In this document: positions 12,313 through 24,497 of the stretch, piece by piece
Numbering within the stretch: position 1 is the first letter of the stretch
Layout: every line of letters starts with the position of its first letter
Assembly (NCBI GenBank): GCA_043803505.1
Contig: JAZDJX010000035.1
Span: 1-33,651, forward strand
From: Candidatus Aenigmatarchaeota archaeon
Lineage (GTDB): Archaea > Aenigmatarchaeota > Aenigmatarchaeia > GW2011-AR5
Length of the DNA: 33,651 nucleotides
Reading direction: 5' to 3'
Translations under genes and position numbers: made by a program
The notes under the pieces: generated by a model
The model's database searches: none
What the model was told of the DNA's origin: nothing
Seen by the model: only the letters and a program-made list of their open reading frames with translations

Positions 12313-12639
12313 ATGAAGGGTTTAGAACTTCCTATAAGCATGATTGTGGTCATTGCCATAGCAGTGCTGGTTCTTGTGATTGTCGCAGCATTCTTCACAA
12401 ATATTTTCGGAGGCACTGTCAACGATATCAACCTAGACAGCGCCATACAGAGTGCATGCAGCAACCTGCAGTTCACATACAATTGCAATATAGACAGATG
12501 GAATGAAGTATATTCAATGTACAAGGCGCCTGGAAAAGATGAAGAGCAGAGAACAAGCCTTGAGGAACTGTGTGACCTGAAAGGCATGGATATCAAGGCA
12601 TGTGCAGGAAAATGTGGATGCCCTATACCAAATATATAG
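12313..12639 (+). CDS. Class-III signal peptide (type IV pilin-like) protein, Cys-rich
   Basis: MKG|LELPISMIVVIAIAVLVLVIVAAFF has a basic residue plus Gly followed by a long hydrophobic helix. The C-terminal half contains 7 Cys. Confidence 0.75.
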   Translation: MKGLELPISMIVVIAIAVLVLVIVAAFFTNIFGGTVNDINLDSAIQSACSNLQFTYNCNIDRWNEVYSMYKAPGKDEEQRTSLEELCDLKGMDIKACAGKCGCPIPNI

Positions 12640-12676
12640 TGTGAAACAAATTCTTCAGCGTCAAGGAATAGATTAA

Positions 12677-13684
12677 TTATCCCCACTTGTCAAGCGATTT
12701 TTGCTCGCCTCTGCTTTCATCAAGTTTTTTTAATGCATTTTCAATGCGCTCTTCTGAAAACTCATGCTCATCGCATAGAATCTGCTTTACTTTTTCCGGA
12801 TAAGGCTCATGAAATTTTATGTCATAGCTGCATTTGAGAGGCTTGCGGAAAAACTCGTATATCTCTTCCATGGAAATATCAAAATCCCATATAACAGATT
12901 TCTTGACGGCATTCAGGGTTTTTTCTTTCACAAGCTCAAGCGCCTTTTTTGGCCCGTATCCTGTTACGCCACCAGGATTATAATCTGTGCCTGCAAGAAT
13001 GCCTATGAGTATAAGCTGGCTTTGATTTATGTCAAGTTCCCTGAGGGCATCATTGAGTATTATTATCTCAGGATTTATTGTAACATAACCGCCAGCTCTC
13101 TTTCGCCTTCCGCTTATGGAAAGGTTTCTCACAACCCTCGGGCAGCCAAAAAGCAGTGCATCATAATCCTGTGTTGCAGCAGCATAGGCATCGCCTTTCA
13201 TTGTTATCAGTGTGCACAACGCCTCACCTTCTGATGGCGCCTGAATATTTGGTATGCCCATGGCATCAAGCAACTGCTTGCTGTCGTCTATAATTTCATC
13301 AGTTATCGTTGCTGAGCGCTGTGCATATTTTCTTGCACCCTCAAAATCCTCTTTTTGTAACGCTTCCTTCCATGCATGCAAAGCCTCAAGCCGTATATCA
13401 CGCCTTTTTTCAGTAGTTTCTTTTTTAAGAACAGGTGGCTCGCCGTCAAAAACATATATGGGTTTTATGCCTGTCTCAAGCAGTCTCATATTTCTGTAAA
13501 ACAAGCCTGAAAGATGTGATGTTACCCTTCCTTTTGAATCCTCTAATGGTTTTCCATCCTTCTGTCTTATTATCGTGAGAAACTGGTAAATCCAGTTAAA
13601 TGCATCTATTGCAATGCGTTTTCCAGAAAGTTGTTCTAATCCTATCTCATTTGCCTTTATGATGTCACCGAGCTGGACACCCAT
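12677..13684 (-). CDS. fen: Flap endonuclease 1
   Basis: From ATG 13684: MGVQLGDII...KRIAIDAFNWIYQFL...GIKPIYVFDGEPP...GTDYNPGG. These are the canonical archaeal FEN-1/XPG N and I regions. The track frame starts 3 codons earlier at GTG. Confidence 0.92.
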   Translation of the reverse strand: MGVQLGDIIKANEIGLEQLSGKRIAIDAFNWIYQFLTIIRQKDGKPLEDSKGRVTSHLSGLFYRNMRLLETGIKPIYVFDGEPPVLKKETTEKRRDIRLEALHAWKEALQKEDFEGARKYAQRSATITDEIIDDSKQLLDAMGIPNIQAPSEGEALCTLITMKGDAYAAATQDYDALLFGCPRVVRNLSISGRRKRAGGYVTINPEIIILNDALRELDINQSQLILIGILAGTDYNPGGVTGYGPKKALELVKEKTLNAVKKSVIWDFDISMEEIYEFFRKPLKCSYDIKFHEPYPEKVKQILCDEHEFSEERIENALKKLDESRGEQKSLDKWG

Positions 13685-13777
13685 ACATAACACTATAATA
13701 TTTGGCTTATGTTAATAAAAAGTTATCATAAAACACGATATAGCCAAGATGTTTGGCTCTGTAGAAAGCGGCATAGA

Positions 13778-13811
13778 CTTTTCTTTGTTTCCCCATTTCA
13801 TAGAGGAAAAG
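13778..13811 (-). terminator. T/A-rich inverted repeat (CTTTTC...GAAAAG) downstream of the pilin-like gene at 13865..14236
   Basis: CTTTTCTTT (13778-13786) and GAAAAGAAAG (13806-13815) are separated by about 20 nt. The same motif occurs as three tandem copies at 26129-26268. It gives oligo-T stretches on both strands. Confidence 0.4.
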
Positions 13812-13864
13812 AAAGAAAAACACGGATAAACAGATTTTTTGTTTCCTGTAGAGATGTTTCGTAT

Positions 13865-14236
13865 TCATCTCATACAATACATGCTGCAGCAGCTTCGTAT
13901 GCAATTTATATCACCGATTTTTGTAGGGTCAAGCGTTGTTTTGCCTTTGCACTGAGGATATCCGCCTCCCTTGTTTGCATCAGCAAGCCTCTTGCATGTA
14001 TCAGCCAGACCTTTAAGTGTTTCTTCTGCTTCGCCTTTCTTATCTGCTGTCAGACCATCGCAGCTGCCGTCAAATCTTGCATATGCAGAGCAGTAAACAG
14101 CCTGTCTCTCAGTAAGTTTTGTGAAATCTTCAGTCGGAATGGATATCATCCTGAAATATACCAGAAGCGAGCTCATGACAGTCACTGCGATTATGATAAA
14201 CACAATGGTTTCTATTGCAAGCGAAACTCCTTTCAT
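13865..14236 (-). CDS. Class-III signal peptide (type IV pilin-like) protein, Cys-rich
   Basis: MKG|VSLAIETIVFIIIAVTVMSSLLVYF. The extracellular part has 9 Cys. Its layout resembles the 12313 gene. Confidence 0.75.
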   Translation of the reverse strand: MKGVSLAIETIVFIIIAVTVMSSLLVYFRMISIPTEDFTKLTERQAVYCSAYARFDGSCDGLTADKKGEAEETLKGLADTCKRLADANKGGGYPQCKGKTTLDPTKIGDINCIRSCCSMYCMR

Positions 14237-14282
14237 ATTACAGCACCATAATCAGTTTATTTTGGTTATATAAAAAATTATT

Positions 14283-14435
14283 CTACGGTGACATGCCCCT
14301 GAAAAAATTGCTTATGAACGACAGTCCCTTGTTAAGAAACTGGCCCTGGTTTGTCACAAATAATATCAAAACAACAAGAACCGACATGCCGAAAATTAGG
14401 CCTATCACAGCGATATGAGGAAGTTCATATTCCAT
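14283..14435 (-). CDS. Small hydrophobic protein (50 aa), not in the ORF track
   Basis: My reverse-strand translation: MEYELPHIAVIGLIFGMSVLVVLILFVTNQGQFLNKGLSFISNFFRGMSP*. One TM helix. It sits inside the pilin-like operon. Confidence 0.4.
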   Translation of the reverse strand: MEYELPHIAVIGLIFGMSVLVVLILFVTNQGQFLNKGLSFISNFFRGMSP

Positions 14436-14460
14436 GGATATAATTATTGTCAAGGACATA

Positions 14461-14610
14461 TATAGTTAACCAGCAAAAGAATTGGAATATGTTTGTTGGT
14501 TAACTTATACATGGTGAAGCAAAGCTTCACCTGTACAAGTGGAACTTTGTTCCACTATGTAGCAGTCAACTTTTATAATTTCTTCCGATTGTTAAGTTGA
14601 CTAGCTATAA
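14461..14610. repeat. Four-hairpin intergenic element (type B/C)
   Basis: hp0 pairs AGTTAACCA (14464-72) with TGGTTAACT (14497-505). After CAT, hp1 pairs GGTGAAGC with GCTTCACC around an aaa loop (14513-31). After TGTACA, hp2 pairs AGTGGAAC with GTTCCACT around a ttt loop (14538-56). After ATGTAGC, hp3 pairs AGTCAACTT (14564-72) with AAGTTGACT (14594-602), followed by AGCTATAA. Confidence 0.75.
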
Positions 14611-14648
14611 ATTTCTGGTTAAAGTGAAATTTCCGGAAAAAATAAAGA

Positions 14649-15215
14649 TTATTCTATAGGAACCTCTTTGCCGCATTTTCCATTCAGCCTTACACCGCCA
14701 ATCAATCTTTTTACACACTGCTTGACAAATGTGTTTTTATCTGCGTTAATGTCATGTGAAAGATCCACGCAAAGTTCGTTGCTCTTGAAGAATCCTATAA
14801 AAAATGATTCATTTGTGCCCCATCCTGTATTGGAATAGACAGTCACAGTCATGCTGAAAACATTTTTTCCATCCTTCTCAAGTTTAACGGTGTCGCTGCC
14901 TGCAATTTTTTCCTTGAAGAATACAACTGGTATGGCATCAACATTTTGAGTTCCATCATAGACTATTCCGAGGTTTGTGATTAAAATTTCAAACTTGAAA
15001 TTGCCTTCATAGTTTGCTATCTCATCGGCTGTCGCCTGTATGCATGTAAGATTTATTGTACCCTTATATTTTGGCGAAAGTGTGAAAAACATGTCTTCAT
15101 CGGGCTTTCCGAGCCATTTGTAAACAATGTCCTTGCCAGCTGCGAAAATCGTAATCACTAAAGCAAGCGTAATAATCATTGTAAGAAACTTGAACGTCGT
15201 GGTAATTTCAACCAT
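14649..15215 (-). CDS. N-terminally anchored pilin-like/surface protein (M-V-E-I N-terminus)
   Basis: MVEITTTFKFLTMIITLALVITIFAAGK is followed by a beta-rich 160-aa domain with 4 Cys. It belongs to the minus-strand operon. Confidence 0.7.
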   Translation of the reverse strand: MVEITTTFKFLTMIITLALVITIFAAGKDIVYKWLGKPDEDMFFTLSPKYKGTINLTCIQATADEIANYEGNFKFEILITNLGIVYDGTQNVDAIPVVFFKEKIAGSDTVKLEKDGKNVFSMTVTVYSNTGWGTNESFFIGFFKSNELCVDLSHDINADKNTFVKQCVKRLIGGVRLNGKCGKEVPIE

Positions 15216-15245
15216 AAGTACTATTTGTTCTTGGTATTAAAATAT

Positions 15246-16202
15246 CTAAACAGGGCAGTTATCGCATGTCACCTGTTCAGGTAGCACCCTGAAAGAATAT
15301 ATACCCAGCAACATGTCATAGCATCTCTTGTCAAAATCCACCATATCTCTTTCCCAGCAGTCATTGACACCTTCAGCGGGTTTTTTCCATAAGGATATTA
15401 ACATTTCATCACCAGCATCTTTCCATTCGCCGCCCATTTCAATGAGTTCAATGATGAATTTAGGTTCCCTTACCTCGCATCCTTTTTCAGGGTATGTAAA
15501 ACCTTCAAGCGTTATTTTAACCTCACCTTTACACAAATCAAAACTTTTTTCGCATTTTGACATGTCTTCTCCCTGTTTATCGCAATCAATACTTTTATCC
15601 TTCAGACGAAACCACGACTCAATGTATTTCACAGCTTTGTCATCTTTGCATTCAATAGTCATGACAGCAAGGCATTCTACAATGTCTTTTTCAATGAATT
15701 CCAGATTATTCAGTTGTTTTAGCCTCATGACAGCAAAGCTGTCAAGCACAATACCCTCACCCTCGCTCAGTTTTCCTTGGTATAATGCGCTTCTTTGTGT
15801 TCCTATCCGTCTGTTGGTTGTCAGCGGTGCCTCTTTGCTTCTTAGAGTAAATTTTCCAAGATAAAAGGCAGCATCATTTTTTTTGAGATTTATTATATCT
15901 GGATTATGCACTTTGGTGCCTTTGAACAGCATAGAAACAGTTGCTTCTGTGTCCTGTGAAGACTTGAAGCCTGCTGAAAGATTTATTTCATATGAATAAT
16001 CCGATACAAATCTGCTAGCTTTCATATTTGCTGATGGAGTGCCGACAAGCTTGACAATGCCTGAAAATTTCTCTACAACACCTATTGCTTTTGGGTCTTT
16101 GATTGGCTGATTAAAGCCCTCGGCAAACAGGACGGTTGCAATGACGAGAACAATAAGGACTGTTATGATACTTACCAGAACTTTTTGAATTATCTCAACC
16201 AT
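15246..16202 (-). CDS. N-terminally anchored pilin-like/surface protein (M-V-E-I N-terminus), Cys-rich
   Basis: The track starts at TTG 16217. ATG 16202 gives MVEIIQKVLVSIITVLIVLVIATVLF. The C-terminal part is Cys-rich (about 12 Cys). Confidence 0.7.
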   Translation of the reverse strand: MVEIIQKVLVSIITVLIVLVIATVLFAEGFNQPIKDPKAIGVVEKFSGIVKLVGTPSANMKASRFVSDYSYEINLSAGFKSSQDTEATVSMLFKGTKVHNPDIINLKKNDAAFYLGKFTLRSKEAPLTTNRRIGTQRSALYQGKLSEGEGIVLDSFAVMRLKQLNNLEFIEKDIVECLAVMTIECKDDKAVKYIESWFRLKDKSIDCDKQGEDMSKCEKSFDLCKGEVKITLEGFTYPEKGCEVREPKFIIELIEMGGEWKDAGDEMLISLWKKPAEGVNDCWERDMVDFDKRCYDMLLGIYSFRVLPEQVTCDNCPV

Positions 16203-16206
16203 TACA

Positions 16207-16374
16207 TCAGCCGCCAAATATTCTCGCTATAAGGTCCATCAGTCCGAAACCAGTGCGCGAGGCATGGCTTGACATGTCAGCATAGGCATTGCTCGCCACC
16301 ATAATCATGACAGCAGCGACTATGATAGCCAACAATATTTTATATACAGCAGCAATCATAATTCCCTTTTGCAT
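16207..16374 (-). CDS. Small pilin-like protein (55 aa), not in the ORF track
   Basis: My translation: MQKG|IMIAAVYKILLAIIVAAVMIMVASNAYADMSSHASRTGFGLMDLIARIFGG*. It has a class-III-like KG followed by a hydrophobic helix. Its stop lies 4 nt before the next ATG. Confidence 0.45.
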   Translation of the reverse strand: MQKGIMIAAVYKILLAIIVAAVMIMVASNAYADMSSHASRTGFGLMDLIARIFGG

Positions 16375-16375
16375 G

Positions 16376-16528
16376 TTATCTACCCCTTATAACAGCGGTT
16401 ACGTTTCCAAAGAATGCCTCTGTATTTTTTGATGTAAAAGCTACCATAAGTACAAGCGCAAATAAAAAAAACAGAATCCAGATTATCTGTGTCTGACTAA
16501 GACCAAGTACTTCAGCAGCTTCACTCAT
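16376..16528 (-). CDS. Small hydrophobic protein (50 aa), not in the ORF track
   Basis: My translation: MSEAAEVLGLSQTQIIWILFFLFALVLMVAFTSKNTEAFFGNVTAVIRGR*. First gene of the minus-strand operon. Its stop is 1 nt from the next ATG. Confidence 0.4.
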   Translation of the reverse strand: MSEAAEVLGLSQTQIIWILFFLFALVLMVAFTSKNTEAFFGNVTAVIRGR

Positions 16529-16645
16529 ATTACCTATATGATTTCGGTTTTATTAATGCTTTTTCTGTCGCTGTCATAAAAAAATAAGCCTAATCCAACT
16601 GAACATACTATAACTTTATTTATGCGGTTCGCTATATATTGATTC

Positions 16646-16777
16646 ATGAGAATGGAATATATTGTTATAAGTTTCATCCTGATGCTTGTTGTGCTTGTGG
16701 CACTCGTTTCATTTGGAAAAAACATTGTTCCAATGTTTTCTCAGGCAATGAAAGGTTTCATTGACATGATAGGCTAG
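16646..16777 (+). CDS. Small hydrophobic protein (43 aa), not in the ORF track
   Basis: My translation: MRMEYIVISFILMLVVLVALVSFGKNIVPMFSQAMKGFIDMIG*. First gene of the plus-strand operon. Its stop abuts the next gene. Confidence 0.4.
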   Translation: MRMEYIVISFILMLVVLVALVSFGKNIVPMFSQAMKGFIDMIG

Positions 16778-16786
16778 GTGAATACC

Positions 16787-18349
16787 ATGAAAGGCGGAGA
16801 ATATGCAATGGTAGAATTTTTTGTAGAGATGGTATTCATTGTTCTGCTCTTTCTTTTCGTTTACAATATTGTTTTAACGCTTGCAAATCCGGACATGCAG
16901 ATCGCCTTTCTGAATTCAGAACTTCTTGCATCAAAAATGGGCGAAGCATGTACAAACGACAAAGCAACACTTGACGGCTTCCAGCTTTCACAACCAAAAC
17001 CGTCAAACACGGTTACATCGGTGCTCAACATGGCTTCCAGCGGCGCAGCCACTGAGTTTTTTTCAAAGATAATGCTTGCAAGGTCATCAGATCCACACTT
17101 CCTGCTTTATTACGAGGCATTTCCATTTGGTGAATCTGTCGGATGGGATGTCTACCAGAACAATCGTAATATATTGTTCGCACCATTTGAGGTCGATGGG
17201 ACAGAAATAAAATCAAGCGTTTTTGAAGACAGGTTGTGGAGGAATTCTGATTATAATTTTCTGAACAGGACGTATACATCAGCCAAGGAAAAGATTTCTA
17301 ATGTAGGAGAAGAATTCAAAGAAGATAATGCTGAGTCAGTAGGTGCTGATATAATGGTTTATACTACAAATATAATGCTTGACGACAGACTCAACGCAAT
17401 ACCCACAGAGGAGCCCGAGCAGCTCTCCAAGACGTTCAAGAGGGAAGAAACAGGCAACCTTGGAAAATGGCAGAATGACGATTTCTATAAATTTTTCGGC
17501 TATGCAAGTCTCAAGACAGAAGAACAGATGGCTGTCAAGTACAGACCATGCGGTGTTAATTCTCTTTGTTTAAAAACAAGGGAAGGTGTCCATAGATTCA
17601 AGCTTGATGATGCATGTAAGAATATAAAATATGTGGAATTGGTTTATGATTCAACACACGCAACCATGAGCATAGTTAATGCATTGGAGGGTGGAGGGTC
17701 ATTAATAGCTGGAACGACCGTGACTATTGCGCTTCTTCTCAGATGGCAACCAAGAGCAGCTTCATTAATGGCCGCGCTCACGACATATGCTGGAGCAAAA
17801 TACGGCAAAGAAATGTTTTCAAACATACTAGGATACAAGAACTCTGATTTTTATTCAGCAAGCCCATGCAACATTAAGAGCAAGATAGAGATAAAGAAAA
17901 TAAGCTGTGCTGATATCAAGTGCAGCAAACTCATGAAATATCCTATATACAAGTACAGTAATGATGGGCAGAATGTAAATAAGGTTGGCGAACATTATAC
18001 ATGCATGCAGAACATAGGTGAAAATTTCGATTATGATAAATTAGACTCACAAAATATAGATGGCGACTGCATGCAGATAAAGGTCAGTGAGGTATACAAT
18101 GACTTCTGCTGGACGCCAGACCCATATTCACCAGCTTTATGGTCTAGCTTAAAAGATACTTTTAAAACACTAACAGGAAACATAGTTCATTCATTTCCAG
18201 TAAAAAAGAACACAGAATTCATGTTACTTGATGGTGTGAGCGCTGTTATGCTCAAGCCAGTTCCAGAAAGTTTTTCAAAAGCAGGTTTCTGGAAGACAAC
18301 TTTTGACCTTGACTGGCGCTGGCCCATGGGATATCTAGCACCAGGATGA
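16787..18349 (+). CDS. Large pilin-like/surface protein (class-III-like MKGG signal, then MVEFF helix)
   Basis: The track starts at GTG 16778. ATG 16787 gives MKGGEYAMVEFFVEMVFIVLLFLFVYNIVL. The ~490-aa extracellular part has a second hydrophobic stretch (GGGSLIAGTTVTIALLL) and many Cys. Confidence 0.75.
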   Translation: MKGGEYAMVEFFVEMVFIVLLFLFVYNIVLTLANPDMQIAFLNSELLASKMGEACTNDKATLDGFQLSQPKPSNTVTSVLNMASSGAATEFFSKIMLARSSDPHFLLYYEAFPFGESVGWDVYQNNRNILFAPFEVDGTEIKSSVFEDRLWRNSDYNFLNRTYTSAKEKISNVGEEFKEDNAESVGADIMVYTTNIMLDDRLNAIPTEEPEQLSKTFKREETGNLGKWQNDDFYKFFGYASLKTEEQMAVKYRPCGVNSLCLKTREGVHRFKLDDACKNIKYVELVYDSTHATMSIVNALEGGGSLIAGTTVTIALLLRWQPRAASLMAALTTYAGAKYGKEMFSNILGYKNSDFYSASPCNIKSKIEIKKISCADIKCSKLMKYPIYKYSNDGQNVNKVGEHYTCMQNIGENFDYDKLDSQNIDGDCMQIKVSEVYNDFCWTPDPYSPALWSSLKDTFKTLTGNIVHSFPVKKNTEFMLLDGVSAVMLKPVPESFSKAGFWKTTFDLDWRWPMGYLAPG

Positions 18350-18386
18350 AAATATTAACAAGAAATTCATACAAAAATTTTATTCT

Positions 18387-18529
18387 ATAGCCATCCAAAG
18401 AAATAAACATGATAAGATACCTTTGGTGACTACATGACGAAACTTTGTTTCGTCTGTACAGGTAAAGCCATGCTTTACCATGTATATGTGAACCAAATAA
18501 ATAATACCGACAAAACTTATTTGATTCAC
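18387..18529. repeat. Four-hairpin intergenic element (type B/C)
   Basis: hp0 pairs CCAAAG (18395-400) with CTTTGG (18421-26), with outer CA/TG and TAG/CTA pairs. After CAT, hp1 pairs GACGAAAC with GTTTCGTC around a ttt loop (18436-54). After TGTACA, hp2 pairs GGTAAAGC with GCTTTACC around a cat loop (18461-79). After ATGTATAT, hp3 pairs GTGAACCAAATAA (18488-500) with TTATTTGATTCAC (18517-29). Confidence 0.75.
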
Positions 18530-18588
18530 ATTATCTGTTTCACAAACTTTATTTATCAAGTTCTCCATATAGCATTACAGGTATACTA

Positions 18589-18996
18589 ATGAAAGGCATG
18601 ATGCTCAGCGCGCTGATTGTAATCGTGGTTGTAGGACTACTGCTGATTTATTTGGTATCGAGTATATTCGGCTCTGTTGCCTTGGTGACACAGACTTCTG
18701 CAAGGCTGAATGCCGAGAACGTCGCAGGCATAATAAACATGCTCATGACATCCTCAGAGCAAGCCACACAAAAATATATCATGCCAAAAATAGACTGCAC
18801 ACTCTCAATAAAAAACGGGTTTGTGGATTTTACTGTTAGAGGAAAACAGAATGAAATATGGATAATGCCGTATCTTAGGAGCAACATAGCTGTAGGAGAG
18901 CTGATAGAAAATTGCAATGCCCAGGCAGAAAAAGAACTGTATTTTACAAAATGTACAGATATGATTTTTATAGGATCCAGTCCTGTCGTATGTTGA
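18589..18996 (+). CDS. Class-III signal peptide (type IV pilin-like) protein
   Basis: MKG|MMLSALIVIVVVGLLLIYLVSSIFG, followed by a ~105-aa globular part with 4 Cys. Confidence 0.75.
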   Translation: MKGMMLSALIVIVVVGLLLIYLVSSIFGSVALVTQTSARLNAENVAGIINMLMTSSEQATQKYIMPKIDCTLSIKNGFVDFTVRGKQNEIWIMPYLRSNIAVGELIENCNAQAEKELYFTKCTDMIFIGSSPVVC

Positions 18997-19019
18997 AATC
19001 ATAATTGATGTGATGATGA

Positions 19020-19916
19020 ATGAAAAGACCGACATTCGTAGAAATTATGTCCTGGGTGCTGATTGTAATGGTAGTCATTATAGTCATGTTTTCTCTTATC
19101 GGCATCATGATAGACTTAAGGCCGACTGTTCAGTACAACATGGCTGAAAAATCTGTAGCCGAGATTTCTGAGAATTTGCTAAGCTCAGAATTAACAAATT
19201 CATATTCTGTTTTCAGCAGCGAAAAACTTTCAGCCCTGCATGGAAAAAATATAGAGACGGCAAGGGACTGCAGATATGGTTATGAAGTAACTTTTATTTG
19301 CCTTGACAAAAATAAGTGCAAAAGCCTTGATGTTGATGGAAATGACATTAACGGCAAATACAGTTTCGGATACAAAGAGGGATGGAGTTCCGGTATAATA
19401 GAGTCCATTGATCCTGTATCAAGAAGCGAGTACATTGTTGCCATCGAGGCACATGATGAAATTATACCGGCAAAAATGACCATTGAAATTTACGATACGC
19501 CACTGACAAGAACAGCCTGCATGATAGAAACAGCATATTCATTAAGGAAAACCCAGGAGGCAAGATGTGTCAGGTTTGACAAGGGCGGTGCATGCATAAT
19601 GCCTGCAGAAATAGGATTTGTACCAGGAATCGATATCAATTCATATGCAAAAGATGGCGATAAATTATGCGTTGTGAAGGATGTTAAAAAACGCAACTAC
19701 GAATTTGATGCATGCAGATACATGCCTGGTGTTGATTATTTAAATTTCATAATTGTGGAGCAGGTATCCAACATAAAAAAGATAAAGGCAGTTCCATTGA
19801 AAAACGTGCCTGATATTAACAGCAAGGTTACAAGTATACTGTGCAAAAATATTCCTGCCGATGTTTTGGCAGCTGAAACAGACTCGGATATTATTATTGC
19901 TTTGTGTGTGGAGTGA
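19020..19916 (+). CDS. N-terminally anchored pilin-like/surface protein (KRPTFVEIM N-terminus), Cys-rich
   Basis: MKRPTFVEIMSWVLIVMVVIIVMFSLIGIM. The extracellular part has about 10 Cys. It sits 23 nt after the previous gene. Confidence 0.7.
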   Translation: MKRPTFVEIMSWVLIVMVVIIVMFSLIGIMIDLRPTVQYNMAEKSVAEISENLLSSELTNSYSVFSSEKLSALHGKNIETARDCRYGYEVTFICLDKNKCKSLDVDGNDINGKYSFGYKEGWSSGIIESIDPVSRSEYIVAIEAHDEIIPAKMTIEIYDTPLTRTACMIETAYSLRKTQEARCVRFDKGGACIMPAEIGFVPGIDINSYAKDGDKLCVVKDVKKRNYEFDACRYMPGVDYLNFIIVEQVSNIKKIKAVPLKNVPDINSKVTSILCKNIPADVLAAETDSDIIIALCVE

Positions 19917-19920
19917 TTTC

Positions 19921-20754
19921 ATGGGAGTAATACTTCCGGTAATGTCGCTGACGCTTGTGCTGGTAATAGGCATATCAAGCCTGCTTGTCGGCATGATAGG
20001 CTACATTATATTTTCTCTGCCGTCAACAGGAGGCGGAAAAACAACATATAGTTTTGAATTTCTTGGCATGATTTCAAGGTCATTCTCAATTGCAAATATA
20101 ATTTCTGATGTGAATATTTATGATAGAACATTTCTTGAGCAGGCAATAGAATCAATGGCAACAGGCTCCACAGAAAATGGGAATGCAAATCCAATGTCAA
20201 TATCAGTTTTTATTGACAAATACGACATGCGTTTTTATAGCATTTCAATAGAAAAAGGTGGTAATGAAATATTTAACACAGACAATCTACCAAGAAAATG
20301 TGGAGGAAATGGCATATGTGTTCCTCAGTATGACGATGTAGAAAATTGCGGTGTCGGCAGGATAAAAATAGACGACAAAGAAACGTGCAAGAAATCAGAG
20401 CTTTGTTGCGAGGAAAATGAAAAAGCATATACGGAAACCAAAAATTCTTACACTATAGTCAAATGTGGCATAGGTGGAATCTGCACAACTGGTTATCATA
20501 TGGAAACGCTTACAGAAGCAGGCATAGAATATTCAGAAAGTTTTTGCGAGCCAGGCAGGATACCTATCGAAGAAAAAAGTAATGAATGTCATGTTGCCAA
20601 TAATGGTAATACACCTTTGTGCTGCAGGCCATTGACATTAATTACAAGTGCTTCAGAAACAGGAAATCTGGCACAGATTCCACTGCTTTTCAGGGGAATA
20701 AATGCACCCGAGCCATCATTTGGTTATGTGAATGTTATTACAGATGATAGATGA
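19921..20754 (+). CDS. N-terminally anchored surface protein with two Cys-knot-like repeats (KCG..GIC...GRI.I...C...LCC)
   Basis: The track frame starts at 19861 inside the previous gene. ATG 19921, 4 nt after the upstream stop, gives MGVILPVMSLTLVLVIGISSLLVGMIGYIIF. The two Cys modules are at aa 126-163 and 181-235. Confidence 0.7.
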   Translation: MGVILPVMSLTLVLVIGISSLLVGMIGYIIFSLPSTGGGKTTYSFEFLGMISRSFSIANIISDVNIYDRTFLEQAIESMATGSTENGNANPMSISVFIDKYDMRFYSISIEKGGNEIFNTDNLPRKCGGNGICVPQYDDVENCGVGRIKIDDKETCKKSELCCEENEKAYTETKNSYTIVKCGIGGICTTGYHMETLTEAGIEYSESFCEPGRIPIEEKSNECHVANNGNTPLCCRPLTLITSASETGNLAQIPLLFRGINAPEPSFGYVNVITDDR

Positions 20755-22595
20755 TTGTAATGAACAGCAATAAAGGTGATGCTAACATAATGCTCGCATT
20801 GGTCGGCATAATCTTCATAATTTTCATGCTTATCATTGTGCTGTCATCAGCATTTGGCGAGAACATAAAAAGGCACAAGATGATTTTTGACGAAGTCGGC
20901 ATAATGAAAGCAAAAAATACATTTGTTCTGTTAAACAGAAGCCTTACCGAGACATGGCGCATCTCATCAGCACAGGCAATTTACAATACAGGCGATGAAA
21001 GCATCGGCTGCGGGGCTGATGGTGATTTGGCTAAGGGCGATTTGGTTTATGGCTATTGGTATCAGTATAATCCTGCATCTGAAAAAACACCTTCATGCGC
21101 TGATAAAAATCCAGATGGAACAAACGATTGCAAGCTAAATGATGACGGAACAAACCGCTATCCTTATCCGAGATTGTCAGATGAAAAATACAATTATGCT
21201 GGTTATAATCCAAGAATATGTTTTCCACATGCCACACATCTTGTAAGTTATCTGGATGAAAAATTCAAGCCATACAAAAACATATCAAAAGAATTCGAGG
21301 CCAATAGTGCTAATGTAAAAATATCAAATATAAACAACAAATTCATCCTCACAGAAAACAATAAACTTGTAAATGATGTAACACAGGACATTTCCATAGA
21401 GCTTGGAAAGACAACAATAAAATCAAGCCCAGAATATAAAATAATTTTTGGTCCAGAGGTCTCAGACATTCTCTATGGTGGATGGATGGCAACACAACTT
21501 TTCCTGTCATTCTCAGATTCAATAACAGATGACAAAAATTTTTATAATGATGAAAGGACAAAAGATCCAGCCTATAATTATGGTTTGAGATATCAGAGTA
21601 TTTATGATGACAATCCCGATACAAAGGACTCATATGAAAAAAGAATTAAAGACGAAATCATCAACAAATCAATACTGCTGGAAAAAACACCACAAGCCAA
21701 GTTTAGTATTGATTTCAATGATTTTGAACTCATAGCGCACAATGAAAGCTATAAAATTTTAAGTTCCGTTACCCCGCCTTCAGGAACCACATATAAAACT
21801 GGTTTGATTCTTCATTATGATGCAACAGTCAGAATAACAGGAGAAAAAGGTATTGAAGCTGCAAATTGCATTGAGCCTAGCGATGACACAAAGAGCACCC
21901 TAGATGAAAAAGTAAATGGTGTTGACAATGCATGGCAGTTTGGAGATAAAAAATATACAAATGAAGAAATTGTCCAGCTTGTTGAGGCAATAATGCAGGT
22001 GAAGGATGGGCGATTTAATATGGATAGTAACAGGGAATCAAGCAACATAAAAGCAGCTATTGAATATATCCACGATTTATTTGATAAGTTGAAAAATGAT
22101 GCAAACAATGAAGAGAATATGATAAAGTTCGTTATCGCTGCATATGATTCTAACTGCGGTGAAGACTGCGTCAATAACGCTCGTGATATTGCAAGGGATG
22201 CCGGAAAAACAGACATATGGAATTACAATGAGATAAGCTCATTTTTGCCAGCAGAAACGCAGAATTATGTTGCAAAGGTACTCGGAAATTACATATGCTA
22301 CGGCGGCTTTGTAAGTTCCTCAGCAAATTATTATTTCAACGAGGAAAAGAATAAATTTTACAAAAAACCGTTTTCTCTTGTATTCAAAGTAGAGGACTAC
22401 CTGCCTGCCATTGATTGCAATATGCCGGCAACATATTTTTCATATATTACTGAAAATAGAAATGACCTGCTCTGCTGTGACGGCGTATTCTACTCTTGCA
22501 ATGTAGAAGGATTAGGAGGCAATAATATTCCTGTTGGCAATTCAGCTGATTGCATTGACGGTCAGTTTCAATGCAATGATAATGGCTTCGCCTAA
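20751..22595 (+). CDS. Large (614 aa) pilin-like protein with a degenerate SLT-like module
   Basis: ATGA overlap with the upstream stop. N-terminus is MIVMNSNKG|DANIMLALVGIIFIIFMLIIVL. At aa ~403-515: LVEAIMQVKDGRFN...NIKAAIEYIHDL...VIAAYDSNCG...LPAETQNYVAKVLGNY. The C-terminus is Cys-rich with LLCC. Confidence 0.8.
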   Translation: MIVMNSNKGDANIMLALVGIIFIIFMLIIVLSSAFGENIKRHKMIFDEVGIMKAKNTFVLLNRSLTETWRISSAQAIYNTGDESIGCGADGDLAKGDLVYGYWYQYNPASEKTPSCADKNPDGTNDCKLNDDGTNRYPYPRLSDEKYNYAGYNPRICFPHATHLVSYLDEKFKPYKNISKEFEANSANVKISNINNKFILTENNKLVNDVTQDISIELGKTTIKSSPEYKIIFGPEVSDILYGGWMATQLFLSFSDSITDDKNFYNDERTKDPAYNYGLRYQSIYDDNPDTKDSYEKRIKDEIINKSILLEKTPQAKFSIDFNDFELIAHNESYKILSSVTPPSGTTYKTGLILHYDATVRITGEKGIEAANCIEPSDDTKSTLDEKVNGVDNAWQFGDKKYTNEEIVQLVEAIMQVKDGRFNMDSNRESSNIKAAIEYIHDLFDKLKNDANNEENMIKFVIAAYDSNCGEDCVNNARDIARDAGKTDIWNYNEISSFLPAETQNYVAKVLGNYICYGGFVSSSANYYFNEEKNKFYKKPFSLVFKVEDYLPAIDCNMPATYFSYITENRNDLLCCDGVFYSCNVEGLGGNNIPVGNSADCIDGQFQCNDNGFA

Positions 22596-22640: not shown

Positions 22641-23288
22641 CTACTGGTAGCTTTCAATCGCCATGCCCTGTTTTTCCTTCATCTCATGTATCATATGAGA
22701 AAGCGATTCGATGTTTTTTGTCAGCGATGGCAAAAATTGTCTGAATGCCTTTTCAAGCCCGCCTATGCGCGCTTCAAGTTCATCAAGCCTTGTAAGCAAT
22801 TCATCTGACGGCCCCTGCATCGTAATAGGCTCTTTTTTTATGTTTTCTATCTTCAGGTCATATTGTTTTACGCCAGATTGCAGAGCATTCATGTTGTCCT
22901 CAATCCTTTTCATTCTATCCTCGAATTTTACCCATTTTTCTTCTATGACACCTTCAACAAGATCTTCTATAATAGCTTCAGGTGACTCTGTTTCTTCTTC
23001 CAATTCAGACAATCCCATCTCTTCAATTAGTTCTGATTTCTTTGGCTCCCCGAACAATTCTTCTTCCGGGGTTTTCATTTGTTCAATTCTCGGAGGTTCA
23101 AATCTTTGTTCCTGCGATGAAACACCCTTTCTGACAGCCTCGAGCATTGCACTTTCTATGCTCTCGTACGAATAGCCCTTCTTTTTCATCATTTTTATTA
23201 TCTCTTTGTCAGCCATGCCCTTCTGCATCATTTGTTGTATTTCCTCAGGCGAAACAGACCCGATGCTCTTTTTCTTTCCAAATAACAT
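22641..23288 (-). CDS. Acidic coiled-coil protein, hypothetical
   Basis: 215 aa with a Lys-rich N-terminus, a Glu-rich linker and heptad-like C-terminal half (LTRLDELEARIGGLEKAFRQF). It is divergent from the ATPase operon. No family recognised. Confidence 0.6.
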   Translation of the reverse strand: MLFGKKKSIGSVSPEEIQQMMQKGMADKEIIKMMKKKGYSYESIESAMLEAVRKGVSSQEQRFEPPRIEQMKTPEEELFGEPKKSELIEEMGLSELEEETESPEAIIEDLVEGVIEEKWVKFEDRMKRIEDNMNALQSGVKQYDLKIENIKKEPITMQGPSDELLTRLDELEARIGGLEKAFRQFLPSLTKNIESLSHMIHEMKEKQGMAIESYQ

Positions 23289-23430: not shown

Positions 23431-23868
23431 ATGGTGATTTTTGTGCCTGCACAGGATGAAAAATTTCAGATAATACTTCAGGAACTGGTGCGCAGGACAA
23501 ACGACGGCGTAAGAAGGCTAAGGGGCATTGAGCAGCGCGTTCAGGCAGTAGAGTCAAGACTCAATTCACTTGAGGAATCAGGACTTGCGCGCATAAAAAA
23601 AATAAATGAAAAATTTACAGAGAGCGATATACAGACGAGGAACATAAATGACGAGATGATGAAAATAAAAAACAGCCTTGAAAAAATAACAAGGCAGCTT
23701 TCAACTGTTGCATACAAAAAAGACATAAAGGAGATAGAGAACATGTTTGATCTTCTAAGTCCTGTAAAACAGGAATTTGTAACAAGGGATGAGTTGAAAG
23801 AGTTGGAAGAAGGCCGTTACGAATACAGGCCCGAGAGAAAACAGGAGAAGAAGCCAGAAATGGCATGA
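23431..23868 (+). CDS. Coiled-coil protein, hypothetical (first gene of the ATPase operon)
   Basis: 145 aa, helical and charged throughout (RLRGIEQRVQAVESRLNSLEE). Its stop at 23866-68 is immediately followed by the next ORF. Confidence 0.6.
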   Translation: MVIFVPAQDEKFQIILQELVRRTNDGVRRLRGIEQRVQAVESRLNSLEESGLARIKKINEKFTESDIQTRNINDEMMKIKNSLEKITRQLSTVAYKKDIKEIENMFDLLSPVKQEFVTRDELKELEEGRYEYRPERKQEKKPEMA

Positions 23869-23911
23869 TGTGGTCTTATCAAAACATTTATTTTTAGTCC
23901 TGGTGTACCGC

Positions 23912-24397
23912 ATGGTTTATGAATATGAATATGATGATGAGACACAAACAATAAAGATAAATGCAATGCACTCAATCTACGAATCCAGTATTGAAGACTA
24001 TGATGTTGTCATGGCAACAGCAATCGACAAGCTGCTTGAGGTGAAAAGGCCTGCAAGGATATTATTTTCGGGCTCAAGGGAAGTTGAATATGACTTTGTT
24101 GAATCAAGGCTTCTTCTCGAGATTGCGCTTGCGCTTGAAAAGATAATGAATGAAAAAATTGTCTCGTTAAAAAATGTTTCAATAGAAGGATGTGAACGTG
24201 ACATAAGGCCAAGATTTGTATTCATGCAAAGGGTTGTAAGCGATATCCGCTATGACCCGATAAAGGCCTATAGGAAATTGCTGCGCGAGATAAGGCATAC
24301 GACAGCCGATGAACAAAAAGAAACAGACGAGTGGCATAAAAAATGTTATGTGCACTATAAGGAAAACACACTGCTGCCAGTAAAAAAAAATACTTGA
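23912..24397 (+). CDS. Either the detached N-terminal part of the secretion ATPase or a separate small protein; it stops 5 codons after an A9 tract
   Basis: ATG 23912 (the track uses GTG 23870) gives MVYEYEYDDETQTIKINAM... The frame ends ...LLPVKKNT* just after the A9 run at 24382-24390. The ATPase frame opens inside that same run. Confidence 0.55.
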   Translation: MVYEYEYDDETQTIKINAMHSIYESSIEDYDVVMATAIDKLLEVKRPARILFSGSREVEYDFVESRLLLEIALALEKIMNEKIVSLKNVSIEGCERDIRPRFVFMQRVVSDIRYDPIKAYRKLLREIRHTTADEQKETDEWHKKCYVHYKENTLLPVKKNT

Positions 24398-24497
24398 AAA
24401 TTGTGAGCTCATACAGATAGCAAAGCCGAATCTTTCCCAGCACAGGAATCGTGAGCTTTACAGGAAAATCTTCCATCCAAGCGTAAGGCCGAACTTC

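What the first reader, a model, noticed from the sequence alone, without database searches (positions are those of the whole stretch)
12313..22595. Unusually large pilin-like gene supercluster: two divergent operons plus satellites, with no platform protein or prepilin peptidase in view
Seven proteins carry the class-III signal pattern, a basic residue plus Gly followed by a ~20-residue hydrophobic helix. They are MKG|LELP, MKG|VSLA, MQKG|IMIA, MKGG|EYAM, MKG|MMLS, NKG|DANI and, at 27731, MKG|ISPL. Four or five more start directly with a hydrophobic helix. Genes are tightly packed: gaps are 1-9 nt and one pair has an ATGA overlap. They diverge from a 117-nt promoter gap at 16529-16645. Products range from 43 to 614 aa and most are Cys-rich, which suggests disulfide-stabilised extracellular structures. 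fen (12677-13684) is wedged between two pilin genes, so this looks chromosomal rather than a mobile island. I see no TadC/PilC/FlaJ-type polytopic protein or A24-type peptidase in the window. The only ATPase lies 2 kb downstream. With the two SLT modules, this may be a pilus- or pseudopilus-like machine for contacting and breaching a murein-walled partner.
Basis: partly seen in the sequence, partly recalled or inferred. Interest (0 to 1): 0.8.

Follow-up and report, generated by a model that had tools for sequence, protein, structure and literature searches.

The report
Archaeal pilus cluster carrying wall-cutting enzymes
This is the core chromosomal type IV pilus-like gene cluster of Aenigmatarchaeota, a group of tiny DPANN archaea; its last pilin-like protein normally carries interchangeable enzymes that cut bacterial cell walls, which points to bacteria as partners or prey, although this genome's copy has lost the enzyme's catalytic core.

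Summary
Thirteen consecutive ORFs (12313-22595) each have one N-terminal hydrophobic helix, and the larger ones have even, high cysteine counts. Ten of them are confirmed gene families with no Pfam, NCBIfam or PDB match. They occur in about 34 Aenigmatarchaeota species genomes in a fixed order: ATPase, platform, pilin-like genes, Alba, FEN. In 16 related loci a T2SSE ATPase and a T2SSF platform sit directly upstream, so this is a type IV filament system. The window is a rearranged version. One block is inverted, the platform gene is absent, and the ATPase is split by a frameshift in an A9 run. Two small proteins (109 and 123 aa) have near-invariant MKG|hydrophobic N-termini and are the likely major pilins. 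The 614-aa family is a scaffold whose middle module is swapped among murein hydrolases: SLT 32, M23 31, then amidases, CHAP, VanY and others, in 66 representatives. In this genome, however, the SLT module has lost its catalytic Glu-Ser/GLMQ core, and the second "SLT" (1497-aa protein) is recognisable by motifs only. I found no description of this linkage in the papers searched. Verdict: a new variant of a known kind.

The parts
12313..12639 (+). W109: 108-aa candidate major pilin. N-terminus is MKG|LELPISMIVVIAIAVLVLV, with 6 conserved Cys. Lies between Alba and FEN.
   Evidence: The N-terminal 25 aa are 87% identical across 14 homologs, against 31% for the rest; M1-P7 are invariant and all 6 Cys are invariant. 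The AF2 model (pLDDT 82) shows a helix at 8-55 plus a small head. There is no Pfam or NCBIfam hit. Orthologs occur in more than 20 loci.
13865..14236 (-). W123: 123-aa second candidate major pilin. N-terminus is MKG|VSLAIETIVFIIIAV, with 8 Cys. Paralog of W109.
   Evidence: Orthologs in 23 loci share MKG|ISLAIETIIYLILAV. The N-terminus is 56% identical against 28% for the rest. W109 and W123 cross-hit in BLAST.
14283..14459 (-). W58: small single-helix protein; one of four conserved slots for 40-60-aa proteins.
   Evidence: Positional counterparts exist in L001, L002, L003 and L005. All consist of one hydrophobic helix and a short Gly-rich tail.
14649..15215 (-). W188: bitopic protein with an N-terminal helix, no [KR]G motif and 4 Cys.
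   Evidence: Orthologs were found by BLAST in L001, L002 and L005; the family HMM built from these sequences scores the window protein at E=3e-81. No Pfam hit.
15246..16217 (-). W323: bitopic protein with an N-terminal helix, no [KR]G motif and 10 Cys. The likely start is ATG 16202.
   Evidence: Orthologs in 12 or more loci sit directly after the platform gene. No Pfam hit.
16207..16374 (-). W55: 55-aa protein, MQKG|IMIAAVYKILLAIIVAAV; a short pilin-like protein.
   Evidence: Slot counterparts have MAKKG|, MAKG|, GGKG| or SDSG| before the helix.
16376..16528 (-). W50: 50-aa single-helix protein; first gene of the leftward block.
   Evidence: Slot counterparts exist in four loci. A TATA-like TTAATAAAA lies about 25 nt upstream (inference).
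16646..16777 (+). W43: 43-aa protein starting MRMEY; Flp-like in size and in the EY motif but with no leader.
   Evidence: Nine orthologs start MR[ILV]E[YH] and always sit directly upstream of the W523 gene. The N-terminus is 51% identical against 28% for the rest.
16787..18349 (+). W523: 520-aa signature protein of the cluster. N-terminus is MKG|GEYAMVEFFVEMV, with 10 Cys and a central Gly/Ala-rich hydrophobic insert.
   Evidence: 16 database homologs and 35 genome loci, with Aenigmatarchaeota the only phylum named. The AF2 model has pTM 0.77 and a helix at 4-57; no PDB fold match with E<1. Domain relatives occur in Woesearchaeota and Nanoarchaeota loci.
18589..18996 (+). W135: 135-aa minor-pilin-like protein, MKG|MMLSALIVIVVVG, with 4 Cys.
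   Evidence: Orthologs in about 20 loci, many with MKG or MRG. Weak ComGG minor-pilin match, E=0.0013, below cut-off.
19020..19916 (+). W298: bitopic protein with an N-terminal helix, no [KR]G motif and 10 Cys.
   Evidence: Orthologs in about 33 loci; none has a conserved KG motif. No Pfam hit.
19921..20754 (+). W297: 277-aa protein from ATG 19921 (MG|VILPVMSLTLVLV), with 12 Cys; minor-pilin-like.
   Evidence: Orthologs mostly have MKG or KKG before the helix. Start revised together with the ortholog N-termini.
20760..22595 (+). W614: 611-aa pilin-like scaffold (NKG|DANIMLALVG). It has a conserved N-terminal domain of about 380 aa, a degenerate SLT remnant (aa about 398-511) and a Cys-rich C-terminal domain.
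   Evidence: The family has 83 representatives among 1.84 billion proteins. K5 of the [K]G motif is at least 90% conserved. The middle module is swapped among murein hydrolases. The window copy matches SLT model positions 2-22 and 92-165 only, so the catalytic ES and GLMQ motifs are absent.
22641..23288 (-). W215: cytoplasmic coiled-coil protein that accompanies the ATPase.
   Evidence: Orthologs lie next to the ATPase in 16 or more loci. Weak DUF7491 coiled-coil match.
23431..23868 (+). W145: cytoplasmic coiled-coil protein that accompanies the ATPase.
   Evidence: Orthologs lie between W215 and the ATPase in 16 or more loci.
23870..26141 (+). Type IV filament assembly ATPase (FlaI/GspE/CpaF family). 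It is about 740 aa in relatives; here it is split by a +1 frameshift in an A9 run at 24382-24390.
   Evidence: Pfam T2SSE, 63 bits. PDB best matches are afGspE 2oap (3e-30), FlaI and CpaF. It is 74-78% identical to the single-ORF orthologs in L001 and L003; the two ORFs align to residues 3-156 and 155-739.
27731..28141 (+). W136: canonical archaeal type IV pilin, outside the cluster.
   Evidence: TIGR02537 scores 26.8 bits against a cut-off of 20, with weaker UpsA/ArlF matches. Pfam Pilin_N E=2e-4. An ortholog sits between ATPase and platform in L016.
5621..10114 (-). W1497: 1497-aa membrane protein with about 6 TM helices and a Cys-rich exterior. Its C-terminus is SLT-like (QQESGF, GVMQL, AYNGLG). 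Association with the cluster is unproven.
   Evidence: TM prediction. SLT scores only 13.8 bits, E=0.043. Motifs were seen. No PDB match, no relatives in the loci and none in the metagenome scan.

Best explanation
The region is the Aenigmatarchaeota version of a type IV filament (pilus) system. It is a vertically inherited chromosomal cluster.

Proposed mechanism:
- A FlaI/TadA-type ATPase works with a T2SSF platform. The platform gene is adjacent in relatives but missing from this contig.
- Together they would polymerise two small disulfide-stabilised pilins (W109 and W123) through their near-invariant hydrophobic N-terminal helices, after cleavage behind the conserved Lys-Gly by a prepilin peptidase encoded elsewhere.
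- Four larger proteins with the same kind of N-terminus (W135, W297, W523, W614) would act as minor pilins that prime or cap the filament.
- The remaining bitopic and 40-60-aa proteins would be membrane-embedded assembly parts or leaderless short subunits.
- The W614 family is a modular carrier. A conserved N-terminal scaffold and a Cys-rich C-terminal domain flank a cassette that in most relatives is a murein hydrolase. The filament would therefore present a wall-cutting enzyme to a bacterial cell, letting the archaeon attach to, thin or pierce the murein of a bacterial host or prey.

In this genome the cassette has lost its catalytic core, so W614 can at most bind murein. Any lytic activity would have to come from elsewhere, possibly the SLT-like end of W1497.

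Shown: gene families, synteny, N-terminal motif conservation, linkage to ATPase and platform, the hydrolase cassette census, and loss of the catalytic core here.

Inferred: signal cleavage, filament formation, tip location, and the bacterial target.
For: - Distribution. W523 homologs occur in 35 loci from about 34 species genomes, and Aenigmatarchaeota is the only phylum named in their titles.
- Gene order. The fixed order is W215, W145, ATPase, T2SSF, small proteins, W323, W188, W43, W523, W135, W298, W297, W614, W123, (Alba), W109, FEN.
- Machine components. ATPase and T2SSF are adjacent to the cluster in 16 loci. T2SSF scores 33.8 bits against a GA of 25.2 in L001. The window ATPase resembles afGspE, FlaI and CpaF.
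- Pilin hallmark. W109's N-terminal 25 aa are 87% identical against 31% for the rest, and MKGLELP is invariant. W123 shows 56% against 28%. [KR]G precedes the helix in orthologs of W135, W297, W523, W614 and W55.
- Shape. The AF2 model of W109 is one 48-residue N-terminal helix plus a small head. The W523 model starts with a helix at 4-57.
- Exported proteins. Even, high Cys counts suggest disulfide-bonded extracellular domains.
- Hydrolase cassette. In 23 locus orthologs: M23 10, SLT 8, Amidase_3 2, Glucosaminidase 1. In 66 representatives: SLT 32, M23 31, Amidase_2 4, SLT_2 3, CHAP 2, Lysozyme_like 2, and VanY, Amidase_3, Glucosaminidase, NlpC/P60 and M15_4 one each. The flanking scaffold aligns across the SLT/M23 swap: residues 14-363 and 527-604 against L003.
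- Peptidase implied. A canonical pilin (W136) in the same contig implies a class III signal peptidase in the genome.
- Wider pattern. Woesearchaeota loci with W523-like proteins and KKAQ|-type pilins include one whose cluster ends in a protein with an MltA-type 3D domain.
- Literature. Murein hydrolases in DPANN have been proposed as tools against bacteria, and archaeal peptidoglycan hydrolases have been shown to kill bacteria (PMC9723730, PMC12352652).
Against: - No pilin HMM (Pfam Pilin_N, Class_IIIsignal, Flp_Fap; NCBIfam TIGR02537) recognises any of the 13 cluster proteins.
- Foldseek finds no pilin, or any other fold, for the W109 and W523 models.
- No platform gene and no prepilin peptidase is on this contig. 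No peptidase lies within 10 kb of the cluster in about 40 related loci.
- The ATPase reading frame is broken in this window.
- W614 lacks the SLT catalytic core here, so the breaching step is not supported for this organism itself.
- Six of the 13 families lack the [KR]G motif.
- No host is known for Aenigmatarchaeota. Cleavage, filament formation and tip location are all inferred.
Confidence: 0.6

Rival explanations
1. Pseudopilus or secretion reading. The same ATPase, platform and pilin set forms a short piston-like or surface-display structure, analogous to a type II secretion pseudopilus or the Sulfolobus bindosome. It exposes or releases murein hydrolases to kill competing bacteria or to scavenge murein fragments. 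There is no long pilus and no host penetration.
For: The hydrolase cassettes, the ATPase and the platform are the same evidence as for the main reading. Many bitopic proteins lack a cleavage motif, which fits a membrane-bound complex. Secreted archaeal peptidoglycan hydrolases that kill bacteria are documented (PMC12352652).
Against: W109 and W123 have the extreme N-terminal conservation typical of filament-forming subunits. The hydrolase carriers keep an N-terminal anchor rather than a Sec or Tat signal. With these tools, nothing separates a short filament from a long one.
Confidence: 0.2
2. Ordinary membrane-anchored envelope proteins. The N-terminal helices are uncleaved signal anchors, and the cluster encodes a cell-surface complex unrelated to type IV filaments. 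The neighbouring ATPase and platform serve only canonical pilins such as W136.
For: No pilin HMM or fold match for any cluster protein. Six families lack the [KR]G motif. A canonical pilin sits between ATPase and platform in L016. The cluster is separated from ATPase and platform in the window and in L002, L005 and L037.
Against: The platform gene is immediately followed by the cluster, in the same orientation, in 16 loci across the phylum. MKG is invariant directly before an invariant hydrophobic stretch in W109. A plain membrane anchor would not be the most conserved part of a protein.
Confidence: 0.1
3. A decaying system in this genome. The cluster is being lost or repurposed in this lineage: the ATPase is frameshifted, the platform gene is gone, the hydrolase cassette is gutted and the gene order is scrambled.
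For: Frameshift in the A9 run. No T2SSF anywhere in the window. SLT catalytic core deleted. Inversion of the W50-W123 block relative to relatives.
Against: All 13 cluster ORFs are intact, and the W109 and W523 alignments show their conserved motifs and cysteines retained in this window. A single extra A in a homopolymer is a common assembly error. The platform may simply lie on another contig, since the window is the whole 33.6-kb contig. Relatives L002 and L005 also lack an adjacent platform yet keep intact SLT.
Confidence: 0.15
4. Self-wall remodelling. The hydrolases open the archaeon's own wall so that the filament can pass, as VirB1, FlgJ or BfpH do in bacteria.
For: Dedicated murein hydrolases inside operons for trans-envelope machines are the rule in bacteria (established knowledge).
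Against: Archaea are not known to make murein. The cassette types found (MurNAc-L-Ala amidases, M23, VanY, CHAP, GH23) act on bacterial murein, not pseudomurein (established knowledge). No Mur ligase genes are in the window.
Confidence: 0.05

Closest known systems
Archaeal type IV pili (Methanococcus Epd pili, Sulfolobus Aap/Ups pili, Haloferax PilA pili)
   Same: FlaI/TadA-family ATPase and T2SSF-family platform next to several genes whose products start with a short basic leader ending in Gly, followed by about 20 hydrophobic residues.
   Different: None of the 13 proteins matches pilin HMMs. There are 10-13 conserved N-terminally anchored proteins per locus, up to 614 aa, and Cys-rich. One carries murein hydrolase cassettes. 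The archaeal TFF surveys I read do not mention hydrolase-bearing pilins (PMC4858521; bioRxiv 10.64898/2026.04.22.720090).
Modular minor pilins of bacterial type IV filaments (S. sanguinis PilB/PilC, CofB, GspK; Raynaud et al. 2021, PMC8179133)
   Same: A carrier with a pilin-type N-terminus onto which a functional module is grafted. Modules are exchanged between relatives. Presentation at the filament tip is expected.
   Different: Here the carrier is a 380-aa domain of unknown fold plus a C-terminal Cys-rich domain, with the module inserted between them. The modules are murein hydrolases of eight or more catalytic types, and the host is an archaeon. In the main text of that paper the words 'hydrolase', 'peptidoglycan' and 'archaea' do not occur.
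Bacterial Tad/Flp pili
   Same: CpaF-like ATPase. Very short subunits of 40-60 aa. The W43 family begins MR-x-E-Y, which recalls the Flp 'EY' motif.
   Different: There is no Gly cleavage site before the EY motif and no Flp_Fap Pfam match. The platform is a single polypeptide of 650-700 aa rather than TadB plus TadC.
Machine-associated murein hydrolases (VirB1 of type IV secretion, FlgJ of flagella, BfpH and R64 PilT of type IVb pili)
   Same: A lytic transglycosylase or peptidase encoded inside the operon of an envelope-spanning filament machine.
   Different: Those enzymes open the producer's own wall. An archaeon has no murein, so the substrate must belong to another cell. Here the enzyme is also fused to a pilin-like anchor.
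DPANN 'large lytic murein transglycosylases' and archaeal antibacterial peptidoglycan hydrolases (Vigneron 2022, PMC9723730; PLoS Biol 2025, PMC12352652)
   Same: Murein hydrolase domains in archaea, interpreted as tools against bacteria.
   Different: Those reports treat the enzymes as stand-alone or Sec/Tat-secreted proteins. Neither mentions pili (the word 'pili' does not occur).
Type IV pili of Saccharibacteria/CPR episymbionts (PMC9894109, PMC11623550)
   Same: Ultrasmall episymbionts that use type IV pili to find and bind a bacterial host. I take this from the titles and abstracts listed; I did not read these papers in full.
   Different: Bacterial machinery and bacterial pilins. I did not check those papers for hydrolase-bearing pilins.

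Membership tests
Type IV filament (TFF) system, archaeal type IV pilus | Secretion ATPase of the T2SSE/FlaI/TadA family | tested here: met
   Pfam T2SSE scores 63.4 bits against GA 24.9. PDB matches: afGspE 3e-30, FlaI 6e-22, CpaF 1e-17. The gene is frameshifted at 24382-24390.
Type IV filament (TFF) system, archaeal type IV pilus | Polytopic platform protein (T2SSF/FlaJ/TadC) | tested here: not met
   Absent from the window by Pfam, by tblastn with the L001 and L003 platforms and by family HMM. Present directly upstream of the cluster in 16 orthologous loci; L001 scores 33.8 bits against GA 25.2.
Type IV filament (TFF) system, archaeal type IV pilus | Subunits with a class III signal peptide: short basic leader ending in [KR]-[GAS], then about 20 hydrophobic residues | tested here: met
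   By sequence, in W109, W123, W135, W523, W614 and W55, and conserved in their orthologs. Not present in W298, W323, W188, W58, W50 or W43.
Type IV filament (TFF) system, archaeal type IV pilus | Recognition by curated pilin models (Pfam Pilin_N / Class_IIIsignal, NCBIfam TIGR02537) | tested here: not met
   No hit for any of the 13 cluster proteins, nor for 15 W109-family members at E up to 10. Only W136, outside the cluster, passes TIGR02537.
Type IV filament (TFF) system, archaeal type IV pilus | Pilin fold: long N-terminal alpha-helix packed on a globular head | tested here: inconclusive
   The W109 AF2 model (pLDDT 82) has a helix at 8-55 plus a small alpha/beta head. Foldseek against the PDB gives no match with E<1.
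Type IV filament (TFF) system, archaeal type IV pilus | Prepilin peptidase (A24: PibD/FlaK/EppA) in the genome, and cleavage after Gly | not testable with these tools
   None in the window or among polytopic ORFs near the cluster in about 40 loci. The rest of the genome is not available. Cleavage needs an experiment.
SLT / GH23 lytic transglycosylase | Pfam SLT at or above the gathering score (21.3 bits) | tested here: not met
   W614 scores 16.3 bits. The W1497 C-terminus scores 13.8 bits. Orthologs of W614 reach E=2e-25.
SLT / GH23 lytic transglycosylase | Catalytic Glu-Ser motif and GLMQ motif (W614) | tested here: not met
   W614 aligns to SLT model positions 2-22 and 92-165 only. It has 'AIMQVK' where orthologs have 'AIIQxES', and about 70 model positions are replaced by 12 residues.
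SLT / GH23 lytic transglycosylase | Catalytic Glu-Ser motif and GLMQ/AYNxG motifs (W1497 C-terminus) | tested here: inconclusive
   The motifs QQESGF, GVMQL and AYNGLG are present. However, the profile scores are below threshold and there is no PDB match.
Tad/Flp pilins | Flp motif G/XXXXEY and a Flp_Fap profile match | tested here: not met
   The W43 family has MR[ILV]E[YH] with no preceding Gly. No Pfam match.
Modular type IV pilins | Pilin-type N-terminus plus an exchangeable functional module | tested here: met
   The K-G motif is at least 90% conserved in 66 W614 relatives. The module is swapped among at least eight murein-hydrolase Pfam families. The fold of the carrier was not tested.

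The most novel reading that the evidence does not exclude
Aenigmatarchaeota, and in a related form Woesearchaeota and Nanoarchaeota, possess a dedicated 'murein-drilling' pilus. In this reading the filament tip complex combines an exchangeable murein hydrolase (W614 family) with a protein of novel fold that carries a variable Gly/Ala-rich hydrophobic insert able to enter a foreign membrane (W523 family). If so, these archaea would be episymbionts or predators of bacteria, a cross-domain association. The hydrolase cassette type would then report the host's wall chemistry.
Probability: 0.3. Interest if true: 0.85.

Novelty: new variant of a known kind. Interest (0 to 1): 0.68.

Why it matters
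The hosts and attachment mechanisms of most DPANN archaea, Aenigmatarchaeota included, are unknown. This cluster is phylum-wide and vertically inherited. It links a type IV filament machine to a carrier protein whose cassette is almost always a bacterial-murein hydrolase. That gives a concrete, testable molecular handle on three questions. First, it predicts that the partners are bacteria rather than archaea. Second, it names the candidate filament subunits to look for by mass spectrometry and cryo-ET. Third, it offers a marker, the cassette type, for host wall chemistry. It also adds about ten protein families with no database annotation, one with a confidently predicted fold that has no PDB match, to the type IV filament repertoire. 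Finally, it shows that current pilin HMMs miss a whole phylum's pilins.

Tried and rejected
- Exact-sequence look-up of the 523-aa ORF from its GTG start found nothing. The database gene starts at the ATG three codons on.
- Pfam and NCBIfam on every cluster protein, also at E up to 1-10, gave no pilin, Flp or other meaningful family.
- A PDB sequence search found nothing for W614, W1497 or the W1497 C-terminus.
- Foldseek of the W109 and W523 models against the PDB gave only chance-level matches, E>1.
- I looked for a hidden platform or peptidase in three ways: tblastn with the L001/L003 platforms, a family HMM against all window ORFs, and Pfam on all polytopic ORFs near the cluster in related loci. 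This found only glycosyltransferases, UbiA, CDP-OH transferase and PMT.
- Mobile or viral origin is not supported. tblastn of W523 against 50,697 phage records gave no match. Synteny with Alba and FEN is conserved. No tRNA or Rfam family is in the window.
- A metagenome scan for relatives of W1497 found none. BLAST of W1497 against all loci found none. Its link to the cluster therefore stays unproven.
- The homolog search for W614 returned only 3 relatives because of the word prefilter, too few for a structure prediction.
- I considered a FlaFind-type regular expression recalled from memory and dropped it. It would have rejected the canonical pilin W136, so it was not reliable.

Full report
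**What the window is.** The 33.6-kb window is an archaeal chromosome fragment of about 38% G+C. It encodes Alba, FEN-1, DUF63, a polyprenyl synthetase, GatC, a ZIP transporter, class I LysRS and an M50 protease. According to the homolog table, the window is the whole contig. The families in the finding occur in genomes titled Candidatus Aenigmatarchaeota or left unclassified ('archaeon', 'uncultured archaeon'); no other phylum is named. The organism is therefore most likely a member of that DPANN phylum. It has no close sequenced relative: its W523 protein is at most 37% identical to any homolog.

**Checking the observation.** Between 12313 and 22595 there are 13 ORFs. I name them by length: W109, W123, W58, W188, W323, W55, W50, W43, W523, W135, W298, W297 and W614.
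- Each has exactly one N-terminal hydrophobic helix.
- The larger ones have high and even cysteine counts, while the cytoplasmic proteins in the window have few.
It is conserved in the orthologs of W109, W123, W135, W297, W523, W614 and W55.
- It is absent from W298, W323, W188, W58, W50 and W43.

Several details need correction.
- Intergenic gaps run from 1 to 239 nt.
- W297 most likely starts at 19921.
- The ATPase gene begins at 23870 and is split by a +1 frameshift in an A9 run at 24382-24390. Single-ORF orthologs of about 740 aa align across the break.
- Neither SLT module reaches Pfam's threshold.

**Comparative evidence.** W523 has 16 homologs in the protein database and 35 loci in a scan of one genome per species. 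Gene contexts and a BLAST/HMM orthology table over all loci show a fixed order:
- coiled-coil W215 and W145;
- a 740-aa T2SSE ATPase;
- a 650-700-aa T2SSF platform;
- two small proteins, W323, W188, a small protein, W43;
- W523, W135, W298, W297, W614, W123;
- Alba, W109, and FEN on the opposite strand.

ATPase and platform are both adjacent to the cluster in 16 loci, and the platform passes Pfam's threshold in L001. Alba and FEN flank the 3' end in 17 and 19 loci. The cluster is therefore a vertically inherited chromosomal locus of a type IV filament machine.

The window is a rearranged copy. The block W50-W55-W323-W188-W58-W123 is inverted, which creates the 'divergent operons'. The ATPase module lies downstream of W614. 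The platform gene is missing from the contig. Its closest relatives by W523 identity among the loci with gene context, L002 and L005, also lack an adjacent ATPase and platform. L005 has an IS110 transposase inside the cluster.

**Are they pilins?** Evidence in favour:
- The W109 family has an invariant MKGLELP followed by an almost invariant hydrophobic stretch. Its first 25 residues are 87% identical against 31% for the rest, and it has six invariant cysteines.
- W123 behaves similarly, at 56% against 28%.
- This pattern is the hallmark of filament-forming type IV pilins (established knowledge).
- An AF2 model of W109 (pLDDT 82) is one 48-residue helix with a small head.
- A canonical pilin, W136, passes TIGR02537 on the same contig. 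Its ortholog sits between ATPase and platform in L016. The organism therefore very probably has a class III signal peptidase.

Evidence against:
- No pilin HMM recognises any cluster protein.
- Foldseek gives no match for W109 or W523.
- No peptidase gene lies in the window or near the cluster in relatives. For archaea, a peptidase gene elsewhere in the genome is usual (established knowledge).

**The hydrolase carrier.** W614 belongs to a small family of 83 representatives among 1.84 billion proteins. The family has a conserved K-G N-terminus, a scaffold of about 380 aa and a Cys-rich C-terminal domain. Between these lies a cassette that differs from relative to relative.
- Among 23 locus orthologs, Pfam finds M23 in 10, SLT in 8, Amidase_3 in 2 and Glucosaminidase in 1.
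- Among 66 representatives, it finds SLT in 32, M23 in 31 and Amidase_2 in 4. It also finds SLT_2, CHAP, Lysozyme_like, VanY, Amidase_3, Glucosaminidase, NlpC/P60 and M15_4.
- Motif scans suggest that some orthologs carry both an SLT and an M23 module.
- The scaffold aligns on both sides of an SLT/M23 swap.

These domain types act on bacterial murein (established knowledge).

The window's own protein, however, matches the SLT profile of its orthologs only at positions 2-22 and 92-165. The catalytic Glu-Ser and GLMQ motifs are deleted in frame. The other 'SLT', at the C-terminus of the 1497-aa polytopic protein W1497, shows the three motifs but scores only 13.8 bits and has no detectable relatives.

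**Beyond the phylum.** HMMs of the families detect W523-like domains in much larger proteins. These occur in Woesearchaeota and Nanoarchaeota contigs and in contigs binned as Methanosarcinales. In several of these loci they are surrounded by many small proteins with KKAQ|hydrophobic N-termini. One Woesearchaeota cluster ends with a protein carrying an MltA-type 3D domain. The theme may therefore be DPANN-wide.

**Mechanism proposed.** With the platform, the ATPase extracts W109 and W123 from the membrane after leader cleavage and polymerises them. W135, W297, W523 and W614 prime or cap the filament. W614 presents its cassette to a bacterial wall. The motif-less bitopic and 40-60-aa proteins are assembly parts or leaderless short subunits; W43 begins MR-x-E-Y, which is Flp-like.
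- Shown: families, synteny, motifs, the cassette census, and degeneration of the cassette in this genome.
- Inferred: cleavage, polymerisation, tip location, and the bacterial target.

Rivals are a short pseudopilus or display system, plain membrane-anchored envelope proteins, decay of the system in this lineage, and self-wall remodelling. All are listed with their tests.

**Comparison with the literature.**
- Archaeal TFF surveys (PMC4858521; bioRxiv 10.64898/2026.04.22.720090) and an Aenigmarchaeota genomics paper (PMC8407114) do not describe this cluster or hydrolase-bearing pilins.
- DPANN murein transglycosylases and archaeal antibacterial hydrolases are known, but they are not linked to pili (PMC9723730, PMC12352652).
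- Modular pilins are known in bacteria (PMC8179133).

I therefore rate this as a new variant of a known kind.

**Seen in passing.** The two long gaps inside the cluster hold arrays of hairpins. Their core is two 7-8-bp hairpins with conserved flanks but different, compensating stem sequences. Such double hairpins occur 21 times in 685 kb of window plus related loci, against 0.6 in shuffles. They are mostly upstream of cluster genes. The gaps fold far better than shuffles, with z-scores of -4.3 and -7.6.

Noticed in passing
window 24382-24390 (within 23870-26141): The pilus ATPase gene is broken by a +1 frameshift in an A9 homopolymer; A8 would restore the single 740-aa ORF seen in relatives. 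This could be an assembly error, a pseudogene or slipped-strand phase variation.
   Followed up: partly
window 14508-14561 and 18431-18484 (inside gaps 14460-14648 and 18350-18588): A tandem double-hairpin element with conserved flanks (ACATG / CTGTACA / ATGTA) and different, compensating stem sequences. There are 21 such double hairpins in 685 kb of window plus Aenigmatarchaeota loci against 0.6 in shuffles. They are mostly intergenic and 50-300 nt upstream of cluster genes, sometimes in arrays of three. The gaps fold with z-scores of -4.3 and -7.6, and there is no Rfam match. It could be an operator, a terminator or processing site, or a REP-like element.
   Followed up: partly
window 10152-10202 and 31943-31993: Two copies (78% identical) of a 51-nt element: TATAG + 9-10-bp stem + 21-nt loop + stem + CATATAG. 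One lies upstream of the 1497-aa gene and the other between the LysRS and M50 genes. The pattern is expected 0.04 times by chance.
   Followed up: partly
window 5621-10114 (-), with 10342-10572 (-) and 10620-11741 (-): A giant 1497-aa protein with these parts: an N-terminal Zn-ribbon-like region, 27-nt tandem repeats (9738-9845) encoding PGPERK(Q)LL, an InlB B-repeat domain, about 6 TM helices, a Cys-rich exterior and an SLT-like C-terminus. It appears to form an operon with a 373-aa N-terminally anchored protein, whose ortholog lies next to FEN in L002. No relatives were found.
   Followed up: partly
window 27731-28141 (+); L016 4357 (-): A canonical archaeal type IV pilin (it passes TIGR02537) sits next to a ZIP transporter gene, away from the cluster. 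Its ortholog in L016 lies between the ATPase and platform genes.
   Followed up: partly
window 16787-18349, residues about 297-335 of W523: The W523 family has a central Gly/Ala/Val-rich hydrophobic insert of very variable length, up to about 150 aa in relatives. It has low pLDDT in the model. It could be a membrane hairpin or a membrane-inserting segment.
   Followed up: no
window 3500-5110 (+): A 536-aa Cys-free protein with no Pfam match contains an internal duplication of about 440 nt (direct repeats D1, D4 and D6 at 3920-4716).
   Followed up: no
L005 2350-3377: An IS110-family transposase (DEDD_Tnp_IS110 + Transposase_20) is inserted between the W323 and W188 genes of the cluster in a close relative. 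This is a plausible driver of the rearrangements seen in this lineage.
   Followed up: no
L041, L044, L045, L047 (Woesearchaeota and contigs binned as Methanosarcinales): Related multi-pilin clusters: many genes with KKAQ|/KKGQ|-type N-termini surround a 630-1560-aa protein with a W523-like domain. The L045 cluster ends with a 978-aa protein carrying an MltA-type 3D domain.
   Followed up: partly
window 26124-26272: Repeated GGGCTTTTCTTT / AAAGAAAA hairpin-forming motifs lie between the convergent ATPase and polyprenyl synthetase genes. They are probably terminators.
   Followed up: no
window 555-1370 (-) and 1463-2473 (-): Two adjacent proteins with no Pfam match have lipobox-like signal peptides (LGAC, VTAC). 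They may be archaeal lipoproteins.
   Followed up: no
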